Below, one piece after another: positions 24,611 through 32,000 of a stretch of 32,000 nt of DNA (position 1 is its first letter; each line of letters opens with the position of its first letter). The notes under the pieces are model-generated. The model searched no databases and was not told where the DNA came from. It saw only the letters and a list, made by a program, of their open reading frames with translations. The DNA comes from Candidatus Saccharimonadota bacterium (GTDB lineage: Bacteria > Patescibacteriota > Gracilibacteria > UBA1369 > 2-02-FULL-48-14): assembly GCA_016699145.1 (NCBI GenBank), contig CP064962.1:1200001-1232000 (forward strand), given 5' to 3'. The position numbers and the translations under genes were made by a program.

Positions 24611-24685
24611 GCAGGTATCGTATAGCGGCTATTATGCCACCTTGCCAAGGTGGAGATGCGGGTTCGACTCCCGCTACTTGCTCCA
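24611..24685 (+). tRNA. tRNA-Gly (anticodon GCC), with encoded CCA
   Basis: Hand-folded cloverleaf:
- Acceptor stem GCAGGTA/TACTTGC (one G-T pair).
- Anticodon stem CCACC/GGTGG with loop TTGCCAA, giving anticodon GCC.
- T arm GCGGG-TTCGACT-CCCGC.
- Discriminator T, then CCA at 24683-24685. Confidence 0.93.
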
Positions 24686-24724
24686 AAAGAGCTTTGATCA
24701 TCACAACGTGGTGGGCAAAGCAGC

Positions 24725-24753
24725 TTTACTGGATGCAAAAATCCTTTTAGAAT
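24725..24753 (+). promoter_or_regulatory. candidate promoter for the response regulator / synthase / kinase operon
   Basis: TTTACT (24725-24730), a 17-nt spacer, then TAGAAT (24748-24753), 23 nt before ATG 24777. Confidence 0.4.
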
Positions 24754-24776
24754 GAAAGTATCGCTTGAGAAATTTT

Positions 24777-25454
24777 ATGAAAATCCTACTTGTCGAAGAT
24801 GAAAAACAAATCGCAGACTTTATTGTAGACGTTCTGACGAAAGAAGGTCATTCTACAACAGTTTCAGATTCCATCGATGCGGTTCTTAAAAACAAGTGGG
24901 CCTCTCATCATGACGTGATTGTACTGGACCTCATGCTGGCAGAGGGAAAACGGGGCGAAGAATTGGTGAGAGCCTTACGTAAAAATAAAACGACCATCCC
25001 AATCTTGGTTTTGAGTGCCTTGGGACAAATTTCCTCCAAAGTGGAGCTGATCAATATGGGTGCGGACGATTACATGACCAAACCCTTCGATGTCCAAGAA
25101 TTTTTAGCTCGACTCAACGCTCTGTATCGCCGTCACTTGGAAAAACAGTCGAATGCGCTCGCTACTTATGGAGACATCCGCTTCCATTGGAAACAAGGCA
25201 AAGTGATCCGTGCGGGCCACGAAATTCAACTCACCAAAAAAGAATCGGACTTGCTTCAATTTTTACTGGAACGCAAAGGGGAAGTGGTGTCATTTGAAAA
25301 CATTTTAATGCGAGTGTGGCGAGCCAAAGTGGGCTATCATTCCAATGTGGTGCAAGCCGTGGTCCGCCGCCTGCGTAAAAAACTGGACACCGGCTTCAAG
25401 CATGAATTAATCCACAACGCTCATGGCGTGGGCTATATACTAAAGATAGAATAA
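24777..25454 (+). CDS. OmpR/PhoB-family DNA-binding response regulator
   Basis: Receiver domain: MKILLVEDE, VIVLDLMLAEG (phospho-acceptor Asp), LVLSA, GADDYMTKPF. C-terminal winged helix: LTKKESDLLQFLLERKGEVVSFENIL...VVQAVVRRLRKKL...IHNAHGVGYIL. I prefer ATG 24777 over the track's TTG 24765. Confidence 0.9.
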   Translation: MKILLVEDEKQIADFIVDVLTKEGHSTTVSDSIDAVLKNKWASHHDVIVLDLMLAEGKRGEELVRALRKNKTTIPILVLSALGQISSKVELINMGADDYMTKPFDVQEFLARLNALYRRHLEKQSNALATYGDIRFHWKQGKVIRAGHEIQLTKKESDLLQFLLERKGEVVSFENILMRVWRAKVGYHSNVVQAVVRRLRKKLDTGFKHELIHNAHGVGYILKIE

Positions 25455-25471
25455 CCATTAATATAAATCCT

Positions 25472-26881
25472 ATGGAAGATCCTCATCATGGCGATCTAGA
25501 TGAAGATATAATACCAACAGCTTTTGAAGCACGAGCTCGGGAGTCTATTGTTGAATACAATAAACGTGTAGAAGGAAATTTGAGGTATAAATTCCTTTCA
25601 CCTCCAGGTTCATACCGATACAAATTTGACGACAACGATTACATAGGTTTTAGACTCAAAAGACGTGAAATTCGTCGCAAACTTCTACAGTTAAATCAAG
25701 AGGATGATGAATCACAATCGCCCTTATTTAAACCAGATGCAACCATTGAAGGCGAAATAGCAAAATACATGGGTTTTAAAAGAGGCATCCCTGTTGTAAA
25801 TGGAACAGCTGCAAATCGTTTAGTGATCGATCACTTGTTTCAATTGGCCTGTGGAAAGGACAAATTCGGTAAGATCCAATCTGATCCTGCTGCCTTATAT
25901 GTCGTGGCTCCACGTGAAATACACACCTCTTTGAGACACCCTCTGAATTTGCTGGGTGTAAACATTCATAACATCGGTGACCATAACAATTTCCAAAGGA
26001 TAAGACGAACTTTGGAAGAAACTCCAACAGAAAAAAAATTCAGGGTGCTTATTTTGGAAGCCATTTATAGCGGTAGAGGTTTGACGTATACAGAGGAAGA
26101 AATGCAAGAAATGAAAGGAATTCTCATCTTGGCAAAAGAGAAAGGATTTTGTGTGGTGGTTGACATGTCCCACGATGCTTTTCTTTTAGGTACCAACCTA
26201 TTTCACAAACATGGGCTCACACAATATATCGACATCGCTACCATCAGCGGTTCAAAGGCAAAAGGAGGAGGACATGCACTTCTCCTTTTAAATGATAATG
26301 ACAAAACCTTACGTGAATCTTTTTCAGGCGACCCTTCTTATGTTTTTTCTTCCGCTCCAGATAGAGAGGAGTCCATGATCGACGAAGAACTTCTCGGCTT
26401 TCATAGTCTACATGGTGAAGCCCGAGGGAAAGTGGCCCTAGCTACAGCCAATGACTTAGCCCGGGTACTGAATGAAAGGAACTTATCCACATCTTGGGCA
26501 CCCAGCCCCTCAGTAACAGTAACTTCGTCCATCGTTTTTTTACCAATAGGGTCACCTTCATCAGCCTTTTTTGCTAGAGATGTCCTAGCAAAGCTGGGTA
26601 TTAAAGTAGCTGTATTCATTCCACCAGGAGTACCTGGCGTAGTGAGCGGCTTAAGATTTTCAGCTTCCTATTCAGAAGACCCTGCTTCTAGTGTAGATGC
26701 TGTAGCTAATGCAGTTGAAACAGTCATTGATTGTGTGGGGAAAAACATCCAACTTGCACTCCAGTATTCTGACCCCAAAGAAAGGGTGTTAGATAGAAAA
26801 CTATATGAAGCAATCCTTTCTAGGGGCATACCGATGCCTAAGCCCTTACGAATTCAAGGTGGAGTTGTATATTTCCATTAA
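25472..26881 (+). CDS. alpha-oxoamine synthase family PLP-dependent acyltransferase (BioF/Kbl/SPT/CqsA-LqsA superfamily), subfamily unresolved
   Basis: Colinear family motifs:
- KFDDNDYIGF (family pattern fxsNDYLGL)
- IEGEIAKYMGFKRGIPVVNGTAAN (LExxlAxfxg...sGxxAN)
- EIHTSL (HaS)
- IGDHNNF (f-HnD)
- RVLILEAIYSGRG
- FCVVVDMSHDAFLLG (vDeAHxxGxxG)
- IDIATISGSKAKGGG (Schiff-base Lys in the SK motif)
- IVFLPIGS...KVAVFIPPGVPGVVSGLRFSAS (pPtVPxgxarlRi)
The gene lies 17 nt after the regulator gene and 3 nt before the kinase gene. Confidence 0.8.
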   Translation: MEDPHHGDLDEDIIPTAFEARARESIVEYNKRVEGNLRYKFLSPPGSYRYKFDDNDYIGFRLKRREIRRKLLQLNQEDDESQSPLFKPDATIEGEIAKYMGFKRGIPVVNGTAANRLVIDHLFQLACGKDKFGKIQSDPAALYVVAPREIHTSLRHPLNLLGVNIHNIGDHNNFQRIRRTLEETPTEKKFRVLILEAIYSGRGLTYTEEEMQEMKGILILAKEKGFCVVVDMSHDAFLLGTNLFHKHGLTQYIDIATISGSKAKGGGHALLLLNDNDKTLRESFSGDPSYVFSSAPDREESMIDEELLGFHSLHGEARGKVALATANDLARVLNERNLSTSWAPSPSVTVTSSIVFLPIGSPSSAFFARDVLAKLGIKVAVFIPPGVPGVVSGLRFSASYSEDPASSVDAVANAVETVIDCVGKNIQLALQYSDPKERVLDRKLYEAILSRGIPMPKPLRIQGGVVYFH

Positions 26882-26884
26882 AAA

Positions 26885-28981
26885 ATGTCCCTCACTTATC
26901 AAATTCTTGCGTTAAATGCCTTTCTGAATGGTTTGACAGGCATAATAGCTATGTTTTTGGTGCATAAACAAAACCCAAAAAGTCCCATCAATCGTACCTT
27001 ATCAGTTTTTTATTTTTTTGGAGCAATATGGGCCTTGGGATTTTTCTTCCCTTTCACTCAAGACAGCAGAACGCTCACCCTCTTTTCCTTTCAAATATTG
27101 CATGTGGGAGCCCTGTTTTTAACAGTATCTCACCTGCATTTCATTTGTGCTTTTTTAAACATTTATCACGAAAAAAGAACCTTAATCATTTCAGGTTATG
27201 TGTTCAACCTGTTGATCTTGCCTTTTGTTTTCACCCCTCTCTTCATTGAAGACGTCGTCCCTAAAGGCCAGCTTGTCTATTATCCTGATCCGGGAATCCT
27301 TTATCACATTTGGTTGACGGGTTGGACATTTTTGATCGTCCATTCACTGTATTTGTCCATAACCCACTACGGAAAAACCACGGGCATTAAAAAGCTTCAA
27401 CTCTATTACATCATCATCGCCGATATTTTGGCCTTCAGTTTCGGGTCCACAAGCTTTTTATTGGCTTATAATATCAATTTTCCCCCTTATCTCACTTTCA
27501 TTTCATCCATCCATACGGTCATATTGGCCTATATTGTTCTTCGCTACCGCTTTCTAGACTTCAAAGTGACTTTTTCCAATTGGGGAAAGAGTGTGGTGGC
27601 TTACTTTTTTGCCACCCTTATCGCGATTTTTGTTTTAATGCTGGGGGAGGGATTGCCCCTGGGCCTCCACGTATTTCTTATTTCCACCCTCTATCTCTTC
27701 AGTTACCTAAGGATTCGATCCTATTTTGACAGCTCTCATTTTTATAAAATATTTCAGCTCACCAACACCGTTCATCTTAAAAACGTAGTGAACAATTTTA
27801 TTGCTCAAAACCACTTTTATGAAAATTTAGGACAACTGCAAAGCGACCTGAGGAAAATATTTCGCAATCAATTCCAAATCGCTTCCGTAAAAGTCGTGCT
27901 CCTAAGTTCCAAAACAGAAGAATATCCCCATCTTGAAAAACATTTCAACAAGTACAAAGGCTTTTTGGTCACTAAAGAAGTCCTTTTTCGAAGTGAAACT
28001 CAAAAACACACACCGCCTTTTTACGAAGAACTGCTTTCTTTGGGGGAACTGTGTTTTCCTCTCTATAAAAGCAATCGAAATTTGATTGGATTCTTGACCT
28101 TTGGGAAAAAGCCTTTCGATGAAGTGTATACCGAAACGGAGCTGCAAATCCTACAAGGCGCCGCGCATTACATCAGTTTATTGCTCTCAGCCATTTTATA
28201 CAACGTGCACTTGCAAAGTGAAATCAAGGTGAAAACACAAAAATTGCTGGAGCAAAACAAAGAGATTAAAAAGCTCTACGAGCTCGAAAAAGAAACCAGC
28301 GCGGTTCTGAGTCATGAACTGAAAACGCCCATCGTCATCTTAAGCAACACCCATTGGTCTCTCGTCAAATACCTGGAGGGACACCAGGCTCAACTGGGCC
28401 CGGCTTTGTCTTCCTTGCAAAAGTTTTCTAAAGAGATGAAAGAGGCCATACAGCGCATGAACACCATGGCCAATTCCATCTTTCACTTGCGCGAGGTGGA
28501 GTATCAATTGTCTTTGGACTTGCAAAAACTGGACTGGCCCACTCAATTGGATCAACTTTTGCATCACATCGAAAACTTGGCTTCCAAGAAAAACCTGAAA
28601 TTCTCTGCTCATTTTGACCTTAAAAAAGGCACTTTTTACGCCGCCTCGGCTCAATTTGAACAGGTGCTCACCATTTTGCTCGACAACGCGGTAAAATACA
28701 CCCCCCAGGGTTCTATAAAACTCAGTGTGTCCCAAAAGGAAAAAACCCTACTCGCCGAAGTCACCGACACAGGCCCGGGCATCGCTCCACAAATACGCAA
28801 AAACCTTTTTAAACGCTTTTTCCGTGGGCCTCACGGTCGTCAAGTGGAGGGCTTGGGCATCGGTCTTTACATGGCCAAAAAAATCATGGATCAGATTGGA
28901 GGGAGCATTTCCGTTCAAGAAAATCCAAAAAAACAAGGGGTCACTTTCCGCCTGGAATTGCCCATCCACACAAGGTTTTGA
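26885..28981 (+). CDS. sensor histidine kinase with a large N-terminal multi-TM (7TM-type) sensor region
   Basis: - About 9 hydrophobic helices in residues 1-275, with only short loops.
- A cytoplasmic linker, possibly GAF-like.
- H-box SAVLSHELKTPIVIL.
- N box LLDNAVKYTP, G1 VTDTGPGI, G2 GLGIGLYMAKKI.
No receiver domain, so it is not a hybrid kinase. Confidence 0.9.
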   Translation: MSLTYQILALNAFLNGLTGIIAMFLVHKQNPKSPINRTLSVFYFFGAIWALGFFFPFTQDSRTLTLFSFQILHVGALFLTVSHLHFICAFLNIYHEKRTLIISGYVFNLLILPFVFTPLFIEDVVPKGQLVYYPDPGILYHIWLTGWTFLIVHSLYLSITHYGKTTGIKKLQLYYIIIADILAFSFGSTSFLLAYNINFPPYLTFISSIHTVILAYIVLRYRFLDFKVTFSNWGKSVVAYFFATLIAIFVLMLGEGLPLGLHVFLISTLYLFSYLRIRSYFDSSHFYKIFQLTNTVHLKNVVNNFIAQNHFYENLGQLQSDLRKIFRNQFQIASVKVVLLSSKTEEYPHLEKHFNKYKGFLVTKEVLFRSETQKHTPPFYEELLSLGELCFPLYKSNRNLIGFLTFGKKPFDEVYTETELQILQGAAHYISLLLSAILYNVHLQSEIKVKTQKLLEQNKEIKKLYELEKETSAVLSHELKTPIVILSNTHWSLVKYLEGHQAQLGPALSSLQKFSKEMKEAIQRMNTMANSIFHLREVEYQLSLDLQKLDWPTQLDQLLHHIENLASKKNLKFSAHFDLKKGTFYAASAQFEQVLTILLDNAVKYTPQGSIKLSVSQKEKTLLAEVTDTGPGIAPQIRKNLFKRFFRGPHGRQVEGLGIGLYMAKKIMDQIGGSISVQENPKKQGVTFRLELPIHTRF

Positions 28982-29043
28982 CAAACGGTCAAAAAATATC
29001 TTAGTTTTTTTTGTCATTAATTTGTCACGCATCAATTTTCTTT

Positions 29044-29071
29044 TTGTTATACCTTTTGCACGACATTTAAT
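29044..29071 (+). promoter_or_regulatory. candidate leaderless promoter for the sigma-r4/HARE-HTH gene
   Basis: TTGTTA (29044-29049), a 16-nt spacer, TTTAAT (29066-29071), exactly 6 nt (cacagt), then ATG 29078. Confidence 0.35.
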
Positions 29072-29077
29072 CACAGT

Positions 29078-30169
29078 ATGAACTACAACGTATTTGCGTC
29101 CAACCCCACACTTTCCCCCCAAGAAATTGCTTTGCGAGAATTGGTGGATCACTTGCTCATCGTTTTGAGTGGAAAAGAGCAGTACATCATTAAAAACCGT
29201 TTTGCCCTGGGGGAAGAAACGAAAAGAAAAACCCTGAACGAAATTGGAAAACATTTTGGCATCACCCGAGAACGCGTGAGGCAAATCGAAAAAACGGCTT
29301 TGCGCAAATTGGAACGTAACGCGCAAAACACCAATCTAAAAACCCTCACCGAGTTCACAAAAGCTCTGCTTGTTAAAGAAGGAGGAGTGGCTCGCGACAG
29401 CGACTTTAAAAACCTGCTTTTACAATTTTTGCCCAACATCAGTGAAGAAGAACTTCAAGATTTGCATTTGACTCTCAGTCTCGATTCCGAAATTTGCTTT
29501 GAATCCAATACTTTTCATTTTCATCCTTATTGGAGGATCAAAAACATCGAAAATGCTTTTTTGATGAAAATCACCTCCATGACACTGGCCTTGCTGGATA
29601 AAAGCAAAAAATCCATCCCTTTGAATGAATTGCAGCAGAGTCTCAACAGTGCCCTGCAACTCTCTTTGAGCGGTGCCGTGATCCGCAATTTCTTGTCCAT
29701 TTCCAAAGCCTTTAAGTTCACCGACAACAACGAAGTGGGCCTTTACAGTTGGCGTCACATTCATCCACGCACTTTGCGAGATAAAATTTTCTTTGTTTTG
29801 AACAAGGAAAAAAGAGCTCCTCATTTTGACAAAATCAGCGATCTGATTAAAAAAGCCGAATTCGATGAGAAACAGGTCAACACTCAAGCCGTACACAATG
29901 AATTGATCCGCAACGAAAACTTTATTTCGATTGGACGAGGCATTTATGCCCTTAAAACTTGGGGCTATAAAACAGGCACGGTGGCCGATGTGATCACTGA
30001 AATTCTCAGCGATGGCATTCCTCGCAGTTGTGAAGAAATCACGAAAGAAGTGATGAAACAACGTCATGTCAAAGCCATCACCATTCGCTTGAACCTTAAA
30101 AACAAAGCTCGCTTCGCTCGCGTAGGAAGAGACAAATACGCCCTGCTGGGGGAAGCTCAAGCTCTATAA
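29078..30169 (+). CDS. sigma-70 region 4-only domain fused to two or three HARE-HTH-like winged-helix repeats
   Basis: The N-terminal LSGKEQYIIKNRFALGEETKRKTLNEIGKHFGITRERVRQIEKTALRKLER is a textbook sigma-70 region 4 (-35-binding HTH). Regions 1-3 are absent. The C-terminal repeats end in the HARE-HTH hallmark F-x-x-(V/I)-G-R-G-x-Y-A-L: NENFISIGRGIYALKTW and KARFARVGRDKYALL. Confidence 0.75.
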   Translation: MNYNVFASNPTLSPQEIALRELVDHLLIVLSGKEQYIIKNRFALGEETKRKTLNEIGKHFGITRERVRQIEKTALRKLERNAQNTNLKTLTEFTKALLVKEGGVARDSDFKNLLLQFLPNISEEELQDLHLTLSLDSEICFESNTFHFHPYWRIKNIENAFLMKITSMTLALLDKSKKSIPLNELQQSLNSALQLSLSGAVIRNFLSISKAFKFTDNNEVGLYSWRHIHPRTLRDKIFFVLNKEKRAPHFDKISDLIKKAEFDEKQVNTQAVHNELIRNENFISIGRGIYALKTWGYKTGTVADVITEILSDGIPRSCEEITKEVMKQRHVKAITIRLNLKNKARFARVGRDKYALLGEAQAL

Positions 30170-30188
30170 ACTTTATCACACGCCAACC

Positions 30189-31352
30189 ATGTCCACACGC
30201 CTTAAAACGATGGCAAGCTTGCTTGTCCTCTCTATCTTTCTTCAGTTTTTTTCCATGCCTTTGGCTTCTGCAGAAGGAAATCTCCTCACCAATCCCGGAG
30301 CCGAAACAGGAGATTTTACAGGATGGACTCGCGTGAATGGAGGGGATGGCTGGGCTTTGACCTCTGCACCTTGGTACGTCCATGGGGGTACGTATGCCTT
30401 CGTGGCCTCTTATGCCTTTGGGACACTGACTCAAGTGGTGGACTTAGTGGGCGAAGGCTACTCACGCTCTTTTTTAGACCGAGAGCCTCAAGTGGATTTC
30501 AGCACTTTCATCATGGGTCTGGACAGTTTTTCGAGCCCAGAAGACCCTTATTCGGTGACCGTGCTTCTTTTGAATGAAGAAGAAGAGGAAATTGCCAGCT
30601 TCGAAACAGGAGATCAAACGGCAACAGGGGAATGGCAAGAAATCAGCCACTCTTTCACGAATTATGGCAACGGATTGCGTTACGTTTCAGTGGAATTGCG
30701 CGGCAGCGATCAAGAATTTTGGGCAGGAAACTATGGAGCTATTTTTGATGACACGTCACTCTCCATCGTAGGGAACCCCCATTCAGGCAGCATTCCCTTT
30801 CCGGTAACGATTTTTGTACCCGAAGAATCCTCTGAAGAATCGCTCAAAGAGTCGCCTTTTGAAGATGTGACCGAAACAGATCACAAGACCGCGATTGAGT
30901 ACCTCTACGAAGCAGACATCGTCAATGGTTATGAAAAAGAAAATGGAGGCAAAGAATTCAAACCAGATCAATCCATCAATCGTGCCGAATTCTTAAAGAT
31001 GGTCATGGCTCTGACCGAAGAAGAAACAGAAGAACAGCACAATTGTTTCACCGATGTTCAGGATCAATGGTTTGCGCCTTATGTCTGCACCGCCCACAAA
31101 AAGGGCATAATCACCGGCTATGGAGATGGAAGCTTTAAACCGGAGCAGCCCATCACTTTTGAGGAAATGTTCACCCTCGCTCTCAGAGCTTATGGCTACA
31201 CTCTCAAATCCGATGCCAATGAGGCATGGTACAAAGCTTATTGGGACAAAGTGGTCAGCCTCAATTTGCTCGAAGAACTCAAACCCATGCTTCATAAAGA
31301 GGCCAATCGAGGGGAAGCCGCTCAATTGCTCTACAACATGGAAGTCCCTTGA
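30189..31352 (+). CDS. secreted protein with an N-terminal CBM/galactose-binding-like domain and C-terminal SLH repeats
   Basis: - Signal peptide ...FSMPLASA|EGN.
- The N-terminal NLLTNPGAETGDFTGWTRVNGG is typical of jelly-roll carbohydrate-binding modules.
- SLH repeats: FEDVTETDHKTAIEYLYEADIVNGY...FKPDQSINRAEFLKMV and FTDVQDQWFAPYVCTAHKKGIITGYGDGSFKPEQPITFEEMFTL, plus a degenerate third repeat. Confidence 0.85.
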   Translation: MSTRLKTMASLLVLSIFLQFFSMPLASAEGNLLTNPGAETGDFTGWTRVNGGDGWALTSAPWYVHGGTYAFVASYAFGTLTQVVDLVGEGYSRSFLDREPQVDFSTFIMGLDSFSSPEDPYSVTVLLLNEEEEEIASFETGDQTATGEWQEISHSFTNYGNGLRYVSVELRGSDQEFWAGNYGAIFDDTSLSIVGNPHSGSIPFPVTIFVPEESSEESLKESPFEDVTETDHKTAIEYLYEADIVNGYEKENGGKEFKPDQSINRAEFLKMVMALTEEETEEQHNCFTDVQDQWFAPYVCTAHKKGIITGYGDGSFKPEQPITFEEMFTLALRAYGYTLKSDANEAWYKAYWDKVVSLNLLEELKPMLHKEANRGEAAQLLYNMEVP

Positions 31353-31379
31353 AGGGTTTTCATTCTCCAATAAGACGTA

Positions 31380-32000
31380 TCAAAAATACTTTTTGTTACG
31401 AAGTTTCTCTGGCATTAAATCTTCTTTGGTGTACAAATCATAACCCTTACCATAACCTTCTTCTTTCATGAATTTTGTGGGAGCATTTCGTAGCATCAAA
31501 GGCACCGGCAGCGCACCAAAAACCTTCACATCTGAAAGAGCCGCTTCAATGGCGTCGTAAGCACGGCGATCCTTTTTGGCTTGGGCCAGGTAGACCACTC
31601 CATGCGCTAAATGGATGCGCGCCTCGGGCATGCCAATCGTCTCCACGGCTTTAAAGACTTCATTCGCCACCACGAGCGCTGTTGGCAAAGCCATACCGAC
31701 GTCTTCACTAGCAAAAATCACCATACGTCGCGCGATGAATTTGGGGTCTTCACCCGCATCGATCATCCGCGCCAAATAATAAAGGGCTGCATCCGGCTGA
31801 CTCGCCCGCATGCTTTTGATAAAAGCACTGATCACATTGTAGTGTTCCTCGCCTTTTTTATCGTAACGCAAAAATTTGGATTGGACGGTTTCTTTCAAGG
31901 CTTCAATATCTACTTTTCCATAAAGTCGTTCGGCATTTTCGAGCACGGTGATGGCTTGTCGGGCATCCCCATCTGCCATGCGGATCATCCATTCGCGAGC
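31380..32000 (-). CDS. rarA: replication-associated recombination protein A (RarA/MgsA), C-terminal part; gene continues past the window end
   Basis: Motifs: ADGDARQAITVLE, RYDKKGEEHYNVISAFIKSMRASQPDAALYYLARMIDAGEDPKFIARRMVIFASEDVGMA, MPEARIHLAHGVVYLAQAKKDRRAY, LRNAPTKFMKEEGYGKGY. The frame stays open to position 32000. Confidence 0.9.
   Translation of the reverse strand, partial: AREWMIRMADGDARQAITVLENAERLYGKVDIEALKETVQSKFLRYDKKGEEHYNVISAFIKSMRASQPDAALYYLARMIDAGEDPKFIARRMVIFASEDVGMALPTALVVANEVFKAVETIGMPEARIHLAHGVVYLAQAKKDRRAYDAIEAALSDVKVFGALPVPLMLRNAPTKFMKEEGYGKGYDLYTKEDLMPEKLRNKKYF

What the first reader, a model, noticed from the sequence alone, without database searches (positions are those of the whole stretch)
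25472..26881. The AOS-like enzyme keeps the catalytic residues but rewrites a substrate-proximal segment
**Seen in sequence:**
- The NDY motif (KFDDNDYIGF), the PLP-stacking His (EIHTS), the Asp-x-x-His (VDMSHD) and the Schiff-base Lys (ISGSKAKGGG) are all present and colinear with the family.
- The segment between the NDY motif and the LExxIA helix normally carries a Gly-rich G-x-G-x-x-G-S-R stretch in BioF/Kbl. Here it is replaced by a highly charged sequence (RLKRREIRRKLLQLNQEDDESQSPLFKPD).
- The usual vDeAHs.G..G..G.G glycine ladder reads DMSHDAFLLGTNLFHKHG.
- At 469 aa the protein is longer than my recollection of BioF/CqsA-type enzymes.

**Inference:** The enzyme is probably active but has a different amino-acid or acyl substrate preference from characterised members.
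Basis: partly seen in the sequence, partly recalled or inferred. Interest (0 to 1): 0.6.

Follow-up and report, generated by a model that had tools for sequence, protein, structure and literature searches.

The report
Divergent CqsA-like PLP enzyme in CPR
A tiny-genome Peregrinibacteria (candidate phyla radiation, CPR) bacterium carries an extremely diverged relative of the Vibrio CqsA signal-making enzyme, with catalytic residues intact and always followed by a seven-helix membrane sensor kinase, so it is probably a signal synthase, but its "rewritten" loop is a CqsA-branch trait and its nearest relative was flagged in a 2020 survey.

Summary
**Observation: confirmed.** Window 25472-26881 (+) is an intact 469-aa ORF. 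N55-D56-Y57, H151, D231/H234, K262 and R395 sit on the family's catalytic columns in three independent alignments. The model (pLDDT 78) matches only alpha-oxoamine synthase (AOS) structures.

- The "rewritten" segment is not unique. V. cholerae CqsA also lacks the Gly-rich/Arg loop.
- The loop core Q82-S83-P84-L85-F86-K87 matches the CqsA-type M-S-x-x-F-L. S83 is the published amino-acid selectivity position.

**How isolated it is:**
- HMMER over 1.84 billion representatives gave nine non-self hits. The nearest (30% identity) is a Peregrinibacteria protein.
- That protein is also followed, 2 nt downstream, by an orthologous seven-transmembrane (7TM) histidine kinase.
- Bernard et al. 2020 already listed that pair as a candidate CqsA/kinase system.

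**Context:**
- The gene lies in a response regulator-AOS-kinase operon, inside a variable slot beside tRNA-Gly.
- A same-genus relative keeps regulator and kinase but has an antisense methyltransferase-like gene in the AOS position.
- No acyl carrier protein (ACP), fatty-acid synthesis or acyl-CoA synthetase genes were found. A long-chain CAI-1-like product is therefore doubtful.

**Verdict:** most likely an active, CqsA-like signal synthase with an unknown substrate pair. A PLP-based co-sensor role is not excluded. The scan noted this operon before on the same DNA.

The parts
24611..24685 (+). tRNA-Gly(GCC). It marks the left edge of a variable slot that ends at mgsA.
   Evidence: ARAGORN and Rfam both call it. 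The tRNA and mgsA are conserved in same-genus genomes G002 and G005, but the DNA between them differs. G004 has a large serine recombinase next to the tRNA.
24765..25454 (+). OmpR/PhoB-type response regulator, first gene of the operon. The real start is probably ATG 24777.
   Evidence: Pfam Response_reg and Trans_reg_C. A promoter-like site lies at 24725-24753. Its C-terminal part is 90% identical in same-genus G001.
25472..26881 (+). AOS-fold PLP enzyme, 469 aa, of the CqsA-like branch. This is the finding.
   Evidence: PF00155 scores 34.8 bits. The best NCBIfam model is NF005526 (CqsA/LqsA) at 43.8 bits. The AF2 model has pLDDT 78, and Foldseek's top listed matches are all AOS enzymes.
25634..25642 (+). 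N55-D56-Y57, the AOS N-terminal motif (NDYIG).
   Evidence: Y57 and G59 lie on near-invariant columns. I58 replaces the near-invariant Leu, and N55's column falls below the conservation cut-off used.
25652..25696 (+). Basic helix R61-N75 (RLKRREIRRKLLQLN). It is the normal family helix with an unusual charge.
   Evidence: Predicted as helix 61-75. It aligns to the helix that follows NDYLG in all family members.
25706..25744 (+). Substrate-selectivity loop D79-T91. Its core is Q82-S83-P84-L85-F86-K87. There is no Gly-rich stretch and no Arg.
   Evidence: P84 sits on the consensus Arg column and P88 on a consensus Gly column. The core matches the CqsA-type loop. S83 corresponds to ThAOS V79 and SPT S102 (PMC11906848). 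pLDDT is below 50 here.
25922..25924 (+). H151, the His that stacks on the PLP ring.
   Evidence: Invariant column.
26162..26215 (+). D231-x-x-H234 followed by a degenerate glycine ladder (to G248).
   Evidence: D231 and H234 are invariant. There is a 3-residue deletion, and F237 sits on a Gly column. P0002 shares the deletion.
26255..26257 (+). K262, the Schiff-base lysine, in the context S259-G-S-K-A-K-G-G-G.
   Evidence: Invariant column, aligned to the BioF and CqsA lysine. P0002 has the same S-G-S-K..G-G-G context.
26654..26656 (+). R395, the Arg that binds the substrate carboxylate.
   Evidence: Invariant column within P-x-V-P...R.
26885..28981 (+). Histidine kinase, starting 3 nt after the AOS stop. 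It has an N-terminal 7TM sensor (about residues 1-230), a linker, then HisKA and HATPase domains.
   Evidence: Pfam HisKA_7TM, HisKA and HATPase_c. It is 36% identical over its full length to the kinase that follows P0002, and 64% identical to the G001 orthologue.
29078..31352 (+). Two downstream genes: a sigma-70 region-4-only protein and a secreted FBA-SLH surface protein. They travel with the kinase in G001.
   Evidence: Pfam. tblastx to G001 locus L023 gives about 50-80% identity across both genes.
31380..31988 (-). mgsA (C-terminal part). It marks the right edge of the variable slot.
   Evidence: Pfam MgsA_C. It is 75% identical in G002 and G005, where the slot content differs.

Best explanation
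**What it is.** The gene encodes a PLP-dependent alpha-oxoamine synthase (AOS) of the CqsA/LqsA-like branch, very far diverged.

**Proposed mechanism:**
1. K262 holds PLP as an internal aldimine.
2. An amino-acid-type substrate binds through R395 and N55. The ring is held by H151, D231 and H234.
3. A Claisen-type condensation with an acyl thioester gives an alpha-aminoketone.

**Proposed role.** The gene is co-transcribed with an OmpR-type regulator and a 7TM histidine kinase, and the enzyme-kinase pair is conserved in a distant Peregrinibacterium. The product, or a derivative of it, is therefore most likely a small signal read by that kinase. This is the logic of CqsA-CqsS and LqsA-LqsS.

**Substrates.** The selectivity loop is of the CqsA type, with Ser at the gate position and no Arg. 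The amino-acid substrate is therefore not expected to be that of BioF or Kbl. The genome shows no fatty-acid synthesis, so the acyl donor is more likely a short acyl-CoA or a host-derived thioester than a C10 chain.

**Shown:** fold, residue conservation, operon layout, and conserved pairing with the kinase.
**Inferred:** catalysis, product, and signalling role.
For: - **Catalytic columns.** They are conserved in three independent alignments.
- **Selective retention.** The query keeps 25 of 49 family-conserved columns and P0002 keeps 23. Both keep all PLP and substrate contacts.
- **Fold.** The model has pLDDT 78 and pTM 0.79, and Foldseek's top listed matches are all AOS. The Atlas's own independent model also matches AOS clusters.
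- **CqsA affinity:**
  - NF005526 is the best NCBIfam model for the query (43.8 against 39.9 bits for bioF) and clearly so for P0002 (140.5 against 102.4).
  - P0002's best solved relative is V. cholerae CqsA.
  - In trees the query and P0002 join at 99/98 support and sit beside the CqsA-like pair.
  - Each still attaches there when the other is left out.
  - The S-x-x-F loop core is shared.
- **Gene linkage:**
  - The regulator stop and the AOS start are 17 nt apart. The AOS stop and the kinase start are 3 nt apart. No terminator-like site lies between the genes.
  - In L005/L008, P0002 is followed after 2 nt by a 7TM kinase that is 36% identical over its full length.
- **Cofactor and substrate supply.** A 2-oxoacid:ferredoxin oxidoreductase (a source of acyl-CoA) and SAM synthetase are present.
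- **Literature.** The loop sets amino-acid scope (PMC11906848). The P0002-kinase pair is listed as a candidate alpha-hydroxyketone system (PMC7567580, Table S4).
Against: - It scores 44 bits against a curated cut-off of 428 for CqsA/LqsA.
- Its terminal branch is 3.5 substitutions per site, twice that of P0002.
- The Asp before the stacking His, invariant in all 35 other aligned sequences, is lost. The Gly ladder is degenerate.
- No ACP (PP-binding), ketoacyl synthase, AMP-binding acyl-CoA synthetase, CoaE or CoaBC was found in a 99%-complete single-contig genome.
- The kinase's sensor is HisKA_7TM, not a recognised CqsS/LqsS sensor domain.
- Same-genus G001 keeps the regulator and the kinase without any AOS.
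- The tree is unrooted. It shows only that the clade and the CqsA-like pair both lie outside the BioF/Kbl/SPT-like group.
- There is no expression evidence.
Confidence: 0.5

Rival explanations
1. PLP-based co-sensor. The protein binds PLP and an amino-acid-like ligand but does not make a diffusible signal. It would act as a cytoplasmic ligand-sensing or regulatory partner of the 7TM kinase. The aminotransferase-like domains of MocR/GabR regulators and the non-catalytic SPT1 subunit are precedents for such repurposing.
For: - Every retained residue is a PLP or substrate-binding residue, so a sensor would keep them too.
- About half of the family-conserved columns are lost, the terminal branch is very long, and an otherwise invariant Asp is lost.
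- The protein has extra N- and C-terminal extensions.
- No acyl-donor biosynthesis was found in the genome.
- It is tightly coupled to the kinase gene in two lineages.
- The review PMC6148460 documents an AOS paralogue (SPT1) that serves without catalysis.
Against: - SPT1-type dead subunits lack the Lys, His and Asp residues. This protein keeps all of them.
- There is no DNA-binding or signalling domain fused to it.
- The C-terminal tails of the query and P0002 are not demonstrably homologous (E 0.01 in a tiny search space). No conserved docking motif is therefore seen.
Confidence: 0.2
2. Ordinary metabolic AOS. The enzyme works in metabolism or lipid head-group synthesis (Kbl-, BioF- or SPT-like), and its position next to a two-component system is incidental to island cargo.
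For: - About 28 of 401 sampled Patescibacteria genomes encode canonical AOS enzymes with bioF-model E-values of 1e-56 or better (190-430 bits). Many CPR 'CqsA homologues' in the 2020 survey sit next to Tdh, as in a Kbl operon.
- For P0002, Sphingobacterium SPT scores almost as well as CqsA among solved structures (72.9 against 75.1 bits).
Against: - Neither Tdh nor biotin or lipid genes are adjacent.
- The enzyme-kinase adjacency is kept across 30%/36% sequence identity with 2-3 nt spacing.
- The gene was found in only 2 of 401 genomes of the class, so it is not a housekeeping function.
- No fatty-acyl supply for an SPT-type reaction was found.
Confidence: 0.15
3. Decaying passenger gene. This is a relaxed, functionless remnant on an accessory island, on its way to loss, as appears to have happened in G001.
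For: - The terminal branch is twice as long as that of its only relative.
- The gene is absent from the five other same-genus genomes searched.
- The slot between tRNA-Gly and mgsA is variable.
- The only public reads found are low-coverage fragments, and no RNA run was listed.
Against: - The 469-codon frame is intact.
- All catalytic columns are retained while half of the merely conserved columns have changed. This is the pattern expected under selection on function, not drift.
- The spacing with both neighbours is tight, as in an operon.
Confidence: 0.1

Closest known systems
CqsA (Vibrio cholerae; PDB 2WK7-2WKA, 3HQT, 3KKI) and LqsA (Legionella): alpha-hydroxyketone autoinducer synthases, NCBIfam NF005526
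   Same: - AOS fold with the same catalytic set. Query N55, H151, D231, H234 and K262 correspond to CqsA N47, H133, D202, H205 and K236; R395 lies on the family's invariant Arg column.
- Neither has the Gly-rich/Arg loop. Both share the M/Q-S-x-x-F-L/K loop core.
- NF005526 is the best-scoring subfamily model.
- Both genes lie next to a membrane sensor kinase.
   Different: - It scores 44 bits against a cut-off of 428.
- The Gly ladder that CqsA keeps after D-E-S-H is degenerate here.
- The Asp before the stacking His is lost, and the protein has roughly 45-aa extensions at both ends.
- The partner kinase has a HisKA_7TM sensor and no receiver domain, and an OmpR-type regulator lies in the same operon.
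- The host shows no fatty-acyl supply.
KKP38944.1 / OGJ44656.1 / OGJ50390.1 (P0002 and P0012), Candidatus Peregrinibacteria GW2011_GWF2_33_10 and RIFOXY MAGs. Listed with the adjacent kinase as a CqsA-homologue/kinase pair in Bernard et al. 2020 (PMC7567580, Table S4, pairs 114-116).
   Same: - It is the only close relative (30% identity, E 1e-16).
- It shares the 6-residue insert after Y-S-x-x-G, the S-G-S-K..G-G-G context and the 3-residue deletion in the Gly ladder.
- It is followed immediately by an orthologous 7TM kinase.
   Different: - It is 586 aa, with longer termini.
- Its upstream neighbour is a LOG/SLOG-like gene rather than a response regulator.
- It keeps the Asp before the stacking His and more of the loop glycines.
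- It scores 140 bits on the CqsA model, against 44 for the query.
BioF/AONS, Kbl and ThAOS (canonical alpha-oxoamine synthases)
   Same: The fold, the PLP chemistry residues and the colinear motif order are the same.
   Different: - Canonical members carry G-x-G-x-x-[S/V/T]-R-x-x-x-G and the G..G..G.G ladder. The query has neither.
- Canonical CPR members sit in metabolic contexts such as Tdh-Kbl.
Serine palmitoyltransferase (Sphingobacterium multivorum 3A2B; Sphingomonas paucimobilis 2JG2)
   Same: - Both have Ser at the gate position (SPT S102, query S83).
- SPT is the second-best solved relative of P0002.
   Different: - SPT keeps the Arg and Gly residues of the loop.
- SPT needs long-chain acyl-CoA or acyl-ACP, for which no supply was found in this genome.

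Membership tests
Alpha-oxoamine synthase (AOS) family, fold-type I PLP | Fold-type I PLP fold whose nearest structures are AOS enzymes | tested here: met
   The AF2 model has pLDDT 78 and pTM 0.79. Foldseek's top listed matches are all BioF, SPT, CqsA, ALAS or Kbl. The Atlas's own model also matches AOS clusters.
Alpha-oxoamine synthase (AOS) family, fold-type I PLP | Schiff-base Lys in an S/T-x-x-K context | tested here: met
   K262 lies on an invariant column and S259 on the Thr/Ser position.
Alpha-oxoamine synthase (AOS) family, fold-type I PLP | His stacking on the PLP ring (H-x-S) and D-x-x-H | tested here: met
   H151, S153, D231 and H234 lie on invariant or near-invariant columns.
Alpha-oxoamine synthase (AOS) family, fold-type I PLP | C-terminal Arg for the substrate carboxylate, and the N-terminal N-D-Y-L-G motif | tested here: met
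   R395 is invariant. N55-D56-Y57-I58-G59 is present.
Alpha-oxoamine synthase (AOS) family, fold-type I PLP | Gly-rich selectivity loop with conserved Arg (G-x-G-x-x-[SVT]-R-x-x-x-G) | tested here: not met
   D79, P84 and P88 occupy the G, R and G columns. V. cholerae CqsA, an accepted member, also fails this feature.
Alpha-oxoamine synthase (AOS) family, fold-type I PLP | Asp four residues before the stacking His (invariant in the 35 other aligned sequences) | tested here: not met
   P147 occupies the column, with A146 beside it. I do not know the role of this Asp.
Alpha-oxoamine synthase (AOS) family, fold-type I PLP | Pfam PF00155 gathering score | tested here: met
   34.8 bits against a cut-off of 19.7.
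CqsA/LqsA alpha-hydroxyketone autoinducer synthase (NCBIfam NF005526) | Score at or above the curated equivalog cut-off (428 bits) | tested here: not met
   The query scores 43.8 bits and P0002 scores 140.5 bits.
CqsA/LqsA alpha-hydroxyketone autoinducer synthase (NCBIfam NF005526) | Closer to CqsA/LqsA than to other AOS subfamilies | tested here: inconclusive
   - It is the best model for the query, but only by a margin of 4 bits. The margin is clear for P0002.
- In the tree the clade sits beside the CqsA-like pair (97/91). The query and P0002 each attach there when the other is omitted.
- The tree is unrooted and the branches are long.
CqsA/LqsA alpha-hydroxyketone autoinducer synthase (NCBIfam NF005526) | CqsA-type loop (M-S-x-x-F-L) in place of the Gly-rich loop | tested here: met
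   Q82-S83-P84-L85-F86-K87 aligns with CqsA M75-S-A-S-F-L80 and with P0006 M-S-P-A-F-L.
Cqs/Lqs-type quorum-sensing system | Synthase gene adjacent to its cognate membrane sensor kinase | tested here: met
   The gap is 3 nt here and 2 nt in L005/L008. The two kinases are orthologous at 36% identity.
Cqs/Lqs-type quorum-sensing system | Kinase with a CqsS/LqsS-type sensory domain | tested here: inconclusive
   - Pfam assigns HisKA_7TM (40.9 bits), and no CqsS-specific model matched.
- The 2020 survey matched the P0002 partner kinase only through its ATPase domain.
- I do not know whether the libraries hold a CqsS sensor model.
Cqs/Lqs-type quorum-sensing system | Supply of medium-chain acyl-CoA or acyl-ACP donor | tested here: not met
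   No PP-binding, ketoacyl-synthase or AMP-binding match was found in the 99%-complete genome. The control genomes were positive. A 2-oxoacid:ferredoxin oxidoreductase is present.
Cqs/Lqs-type quorum-sensing system | Alpha-hydroxyketone product that activates the kinase | not testable with these tools
   This needs enzymology and a reporter assay.

The most novel reading that the evidence does not exclude
In these CPR bacteria a conserved response regulator and 7TM kinase form a frame into which different small-molecule enzymes are slotted:
- the AOS here and in G405;
- an antisense SAM-methyltransferase-like gene in same-genus G001;
- an Orn/DAP-decarboxylase-like PLP enzyme plus two unknown genes in G037.

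On this reading the AOS version makes a new, short-chain or host-acyl-derived aminoketone or pyrazine-type signal. It would do so in an organism that cannot make fatty acids. That would be the first endogenous, island-borne cell-cell or host-sensing signal circuit of a CPR bacterium.
Probability: 0.2. Interest if true: 0.7.

Novelty: new variant of a known kind. Interest (0 to 1): 0.42.

Why it matters
**Why it would matter.**
- CPR/Patescibacteria are thought to live attached to hosts, and no endogenous signal molecule of theirs has been shown experimentally as far as I know (my own knowledge; the literature searches turned up only in-silico surveys and host-derived AI-2).
- This locus offers a compact, testable three-gene module: regulator, enzyme and 7TM kinase. 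Its enzyme keeps a full PLP active site, yet it lies far outside every curated subfamily.
- The host lacks the usual acyl donors. If the enzyme is active, it would extend the substrate range of CqsA-type synthases. It would also give a first ligand for the uncharacterised HisKA_7TM sensor domain.

**Why it is not a large surprise.**
- CqsA itself has the same kind of loop.
- A published survey already listed the nearest relative, with its kinase, as a candidate quorum-sensing pair.

Tried and rejected
- **Word-indexed homologue searches.** Searches with the query and with P0002 each found only the query sequence itself; the search with alignment A1 added only P0008 (already known) and P0011.
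- **Single-sequence AF2.** It failed (pLDDT 36). The alignment-based run was used instead.
- **The look-up of encoding contigs.** Context was obtained through the search for related loci and the genome search.
- **Expression.** No RNA holder was listed.
- **Read laying on three DNA runs.** It gave only short fragments: identical low-depth pieces over parts of the AOS and kinase genes, plus diverged pieces confined to the regulator gene. No AOS variants were available for a dN/dS test.
- **C-terminal tails.** Homology between the tails of the query and P0002 was not supported (E 0.01 in a search space of two short peptides).
- **Atlas search by language-model features.** It pointed to SepCysS, SepSecS and SHMT clusters, but with low shared-feature counts (109-137 of 256). 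I rejected this lead because every HMM hit, the AOS-type NDY motif and both structure searches say AOS.
- **Distances in the model.** Loop-to-lysine distances could not be measured, because the tools return no coordinates. The loop's position rests on alignment to published structures.
- **AOS remnant in G001.** tblastn of the query against the G001 regulator-kinase gap found nothing, even at E 10.
- **Unpublished genome.** The phylum tally includes one unpublished genome (G565), which gave only a weak sub-threshold hit.
Full report
**The ORF and its motifs**

Window 25472-26881 (+) is an uninterrupted 469-codon ORF.
- phmmer against M. smegmatis BioF aligns V-D-M-S-H with V-D-E-A-H, and S-G-S-K-A with T-L-S-K-A.
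- MAFFT alignments of 9 and of 36 alpha-oxoamine synthase (AOS) sequences have H151, S200, G203, D231, H234, K262 and R395 as invariant columns.
- The NCBIfam CqsA/LqsA model covers residues 49-421 in one colinear stretch.

**Fold**

A single-sequence AlphaFold run failed (pLDDT 36). I then built a 36-row alignment from the HMMER hits plus 26 canonical AOS genes taken from Patescibacteria genomes. With it the model reached pLDDT 78 and pTM 0.79. Foldseek's top listed PDB matches are all AOS enzymes: BioF, SPT, CqsA, ALAS and Kbl. The ESM Atlas's own model of this protein also matches AOS clusters.

**How diverged it is**

- Pfam PF00155 scores 34.8 bits. The best NCBIfam model, NF005526 (alpha-hydroxyketone autoinducer synthase, CqsA/LqsA), scores 43.8 bits against a cut-off of 428. 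bioF scores 39.9.
- Exhaustive HMMER over 1.84 billion representatives found ten proteins at E <= 0.001, one of which is the query itself. The nearest other, P0002, is 30% identical (E 1e-16).
- Of 49 columns that are at least 80% conserved in the other 34 aligned AOS proteins, the query keeps 25 and P0002 keeps 23. A CqsA-like protein keeps 35 and the other rows tallied keep 36-49.
- What both proteins keep are the PLP and substrate contacts. What they lose are mostly glycines.
- The query alone also loses the otherwise invariant Asp before the stacking His.
- Its terminal branch is 3.5 substitutions per site, against 1.65 for P0002.

**The 'rewritten' segment**

The basic stretch R61-N75 is the family's normal helix after NDY(L)G (helix 61-75). 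The true replacement is the loop D79-T91.

In canonical members this loop reads G-x-G-x-x-[S/V/T]-R-x-x-x-G. A published engineering study describes it as follows (PMC11906848):
- It is a flexible loop of about 13 residues from the opposite monomer.
- V79 of ThAOS lies about 3.5 A from the substrate C-alpha and sets amino-acid scope.
- The same position is Ser in SPT and AONS, and Thr in ALAS.

The segment is therefore substrate-proximal, and the second refutation condition is not met either. This rests on alignment, not on my model, because residues 79-88 have pLDDT below 50 and no coordinates are returned.

- V. cholerae CqsA itself reads E-E-Q-Q-S-L-F-M-S-A-S-F-L-Q-N-D in this region, with no Gly-rich stretch and no Arg.
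- The query's Q82-S83-P84-L85-F86-K87-P88-D89 aligns with M-S-P-A-F-L-P-E of a CqsA-like metagenomic protein, with four identities in eight plus D/E.
- HMMER aligns P0002's R-S-G-D-F-R to CqsA's M-S-A-S-F-L.

The S-x-x-F core, with Ser at the gate position, is thus a trait of the CqsA-like branch.

**Placement within the AOS family**

- The query and P0002 join with 99/98 support. They share a 6-residue insert, the S-G-S-K..G-G-G context and a 3-residue deletion in the Gly ladder.
- They sit next to the CqsA-like pair, opposite a BioF/Kbl/SPT-like group (97/91).
- When either one is left out, the other attaches at the same place. The position is therefore not an artefact of the two long branches meeting.
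- P0002's best solved relative is CqsA (75.1 bits), closely followed by Sphingobacterium SPT (72.9).
- The tree is unrooted. 'Nearest to CqsA' is supported, but membership of NF005526 is not.

**Genomic context**

The organism is a Peregrinibacteria (CPR) bacterium with a 1.34-Mb single-contig genome.
- Its taxonomy comes from the scan's earlier notes.
- This fits the named relatives.
- It also fits G405 being reported in the same order.

The gene lies in a tight operon.
- The OmpR-type regulator (24765-25454) ends 17 nt before the AOS start.
- The AOS stop lies 3 nt before a kinase with a HisKA_7TM sensor (26885-28981).
- A promoter-like site lies upstream of the regulator, and no terminator-like site lies between the genes.

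In the distant Peregrinibacterium that carries P0002, the enzyme is again followed, after 2 nt, by a 7TM kinase that is 36% identical over its full length. The upstream gene there is LOG/SLOG-like rather than a regulator.

P0002 and P0012 are KKP38944.1, OGJ44656.1 and OGJ50390.1. These are pairs 114-116 in Table S4 of Bernard et al. 2020, listed as a CqsA homologue next to a putative sensory kinase (PMC7567580). The idea of such a system in CPR, including this very relative, is therefore already published in silico.

**Distribution and mobility**

- The enzyme was found in 2 of 401 genomes sampled from the class and in none of five other same-genus genomes.
- The DNA between tRNA-Gly and mgsA is a variable slot. 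G002 and G005 carry unrelated cargo there, and G004 has a large serine recombinase beside the tRNA.
- Same-genus G001 keeps the regulator (C-terminal part 90% identical), the kinase (64%) and the two downstream genes.
- The roughly 1.45-kb gap between regulator and kinase in G001 holds a 428-aa class I SAM-methyltransferase-like gene on the opposite strand, and no trace of an AOS.
- In G037, a regulator, an Orn/DAP-decarboxylase-like PLP enzyme, two unknown genes and a distantly related 7TM kinase lie in a row.

**Substrate supply**

The 99%-complete genome gave the following results, with positive controls in reference genomes.
- No match: PP-binding/ACP, ketoacyl synthase, AMP-binding enzymes, CoaE and CoaBC.
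- Match: a 2-oxoacid:ferredoxin oxidoreductase and SAM synthetase.

CoA thioesters of short 2-oxoacid-derived acyl groups are thus plausible donors. A C10 acyl chain, as used for CAI-1, is not, unless it is taken from a host.

**Reading**

The most likely reading (0.5) is an active, CqsA-like AOS whose product is sensed by the co-encoded 7TM kinase, with an unknown and probably non-canonical substrate pair.

The main rival (0.2) is a PLP-binding co-sensor of the kinase. Sequence alone cannot exclude it, because all the retained residues are binding residues.

A plain metabolic role (0.15) and a decaying passenger gene (0.1) fit the conserved enzyme-kinase coupling and the selective retention of active-site columns less well.

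Its interpretation is partly supported: a distinct substrate preference is reasonable, but the 'rewrite' is a lineage trait shared with CqsA.

**Earlier work and gaps**

The scan's first-stage readers had already noted this operon and the tRNA-Gly segment on the same DNA.

Noticed in passing
window 26885-27574 (kinase residues 1-230), compared with L023:5717-7837 and L005:8278-10386: The identity pattern of the kinase differs by domain.
- The 7TM sensor is 52% identical to the same-genus G001 orthologue and 50% identical to the different-family G405 kinase.
- The linker is 69% and 34% identical to the same two kinases, and the kinase core 70% and 28%.
- The sensor is thus the most conserved part across AOS-linked kinases, but the most diverged part within the genus, where G001 lacks the AOS. 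Only three sequences were compared.
   Followed up: partly
L023:7987-9273 (+), G001, same genus: The slot between regulator and kinase in G001 holds a 428-aa gene on the opposite strand. It has a class I SAM-methyltransferase-like C-terminal half, with an L-E-L-A-G-G-D-G motif. Atlas features score 0.97 to Methyltransf_20/25 clusters. It has no Pfam hit at E <= 0.001.
   Followed up: partly
L024:6383-13545 (-), G037, same order: G037 carries a similar layout on one strand: an OmpR-type regulator, an Orn/DAP/Arg-decarboxylase-like PLP enzyme, two proteins with no Pfam hit (331 and 632 aa), and a 7TM histidine kinase 24% identical to the window's. This is another small-molecule enzyme set inside a two-component operon.
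   Followed up: no
window 24611-31380; L055, L056, L057: The stretch between tRNA-Gly(GCC) and mgsA is a variable slot in this genus.
- G002 carries HAD-hydrolase and glycosidase-like genes.
- G005 carries a copper P-type ATPase and a DsbD_2/HMA protein.
- G004 has a large serine recombinase directly beside the tRNA.
- GC content of the window's cargo genes is 0.42-0.45, against 0.47 for the genome and 0.53 for pnp.
   Followed up: partly
whole genome G000: No match was found for ACP/PP-binding, ketoacyl synthase, AMP-binding enzymes, CoaE or CoaBC. A 2-oxoacid:ferredoxin oxidoreductase (C1:1068631-1069353) and SAM synthetase (C1:1010946-1011365) are present. CoA must therefore be scavenged.
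   Followed up: partly
L008:10488-11847 (-): In the P0002-bearing genome the kinase is followed by a DUF559 endonuclease-like gene and an IS110-family transposase. One copy of the region ends at a contig edge. This suggests that the module sits in mobile or repeated DNA there too.
   Followed up: no
PMC7567580 Table S4, pair 117 (not in this window): A Portnoybacteria protein, PIP17324.1, scores 137 bits on the survey's CqsA seed model and lies next to a kinase. It may be a third member of this divergent enzyme-kinase group. I could not fetch it.
   Followed up: no
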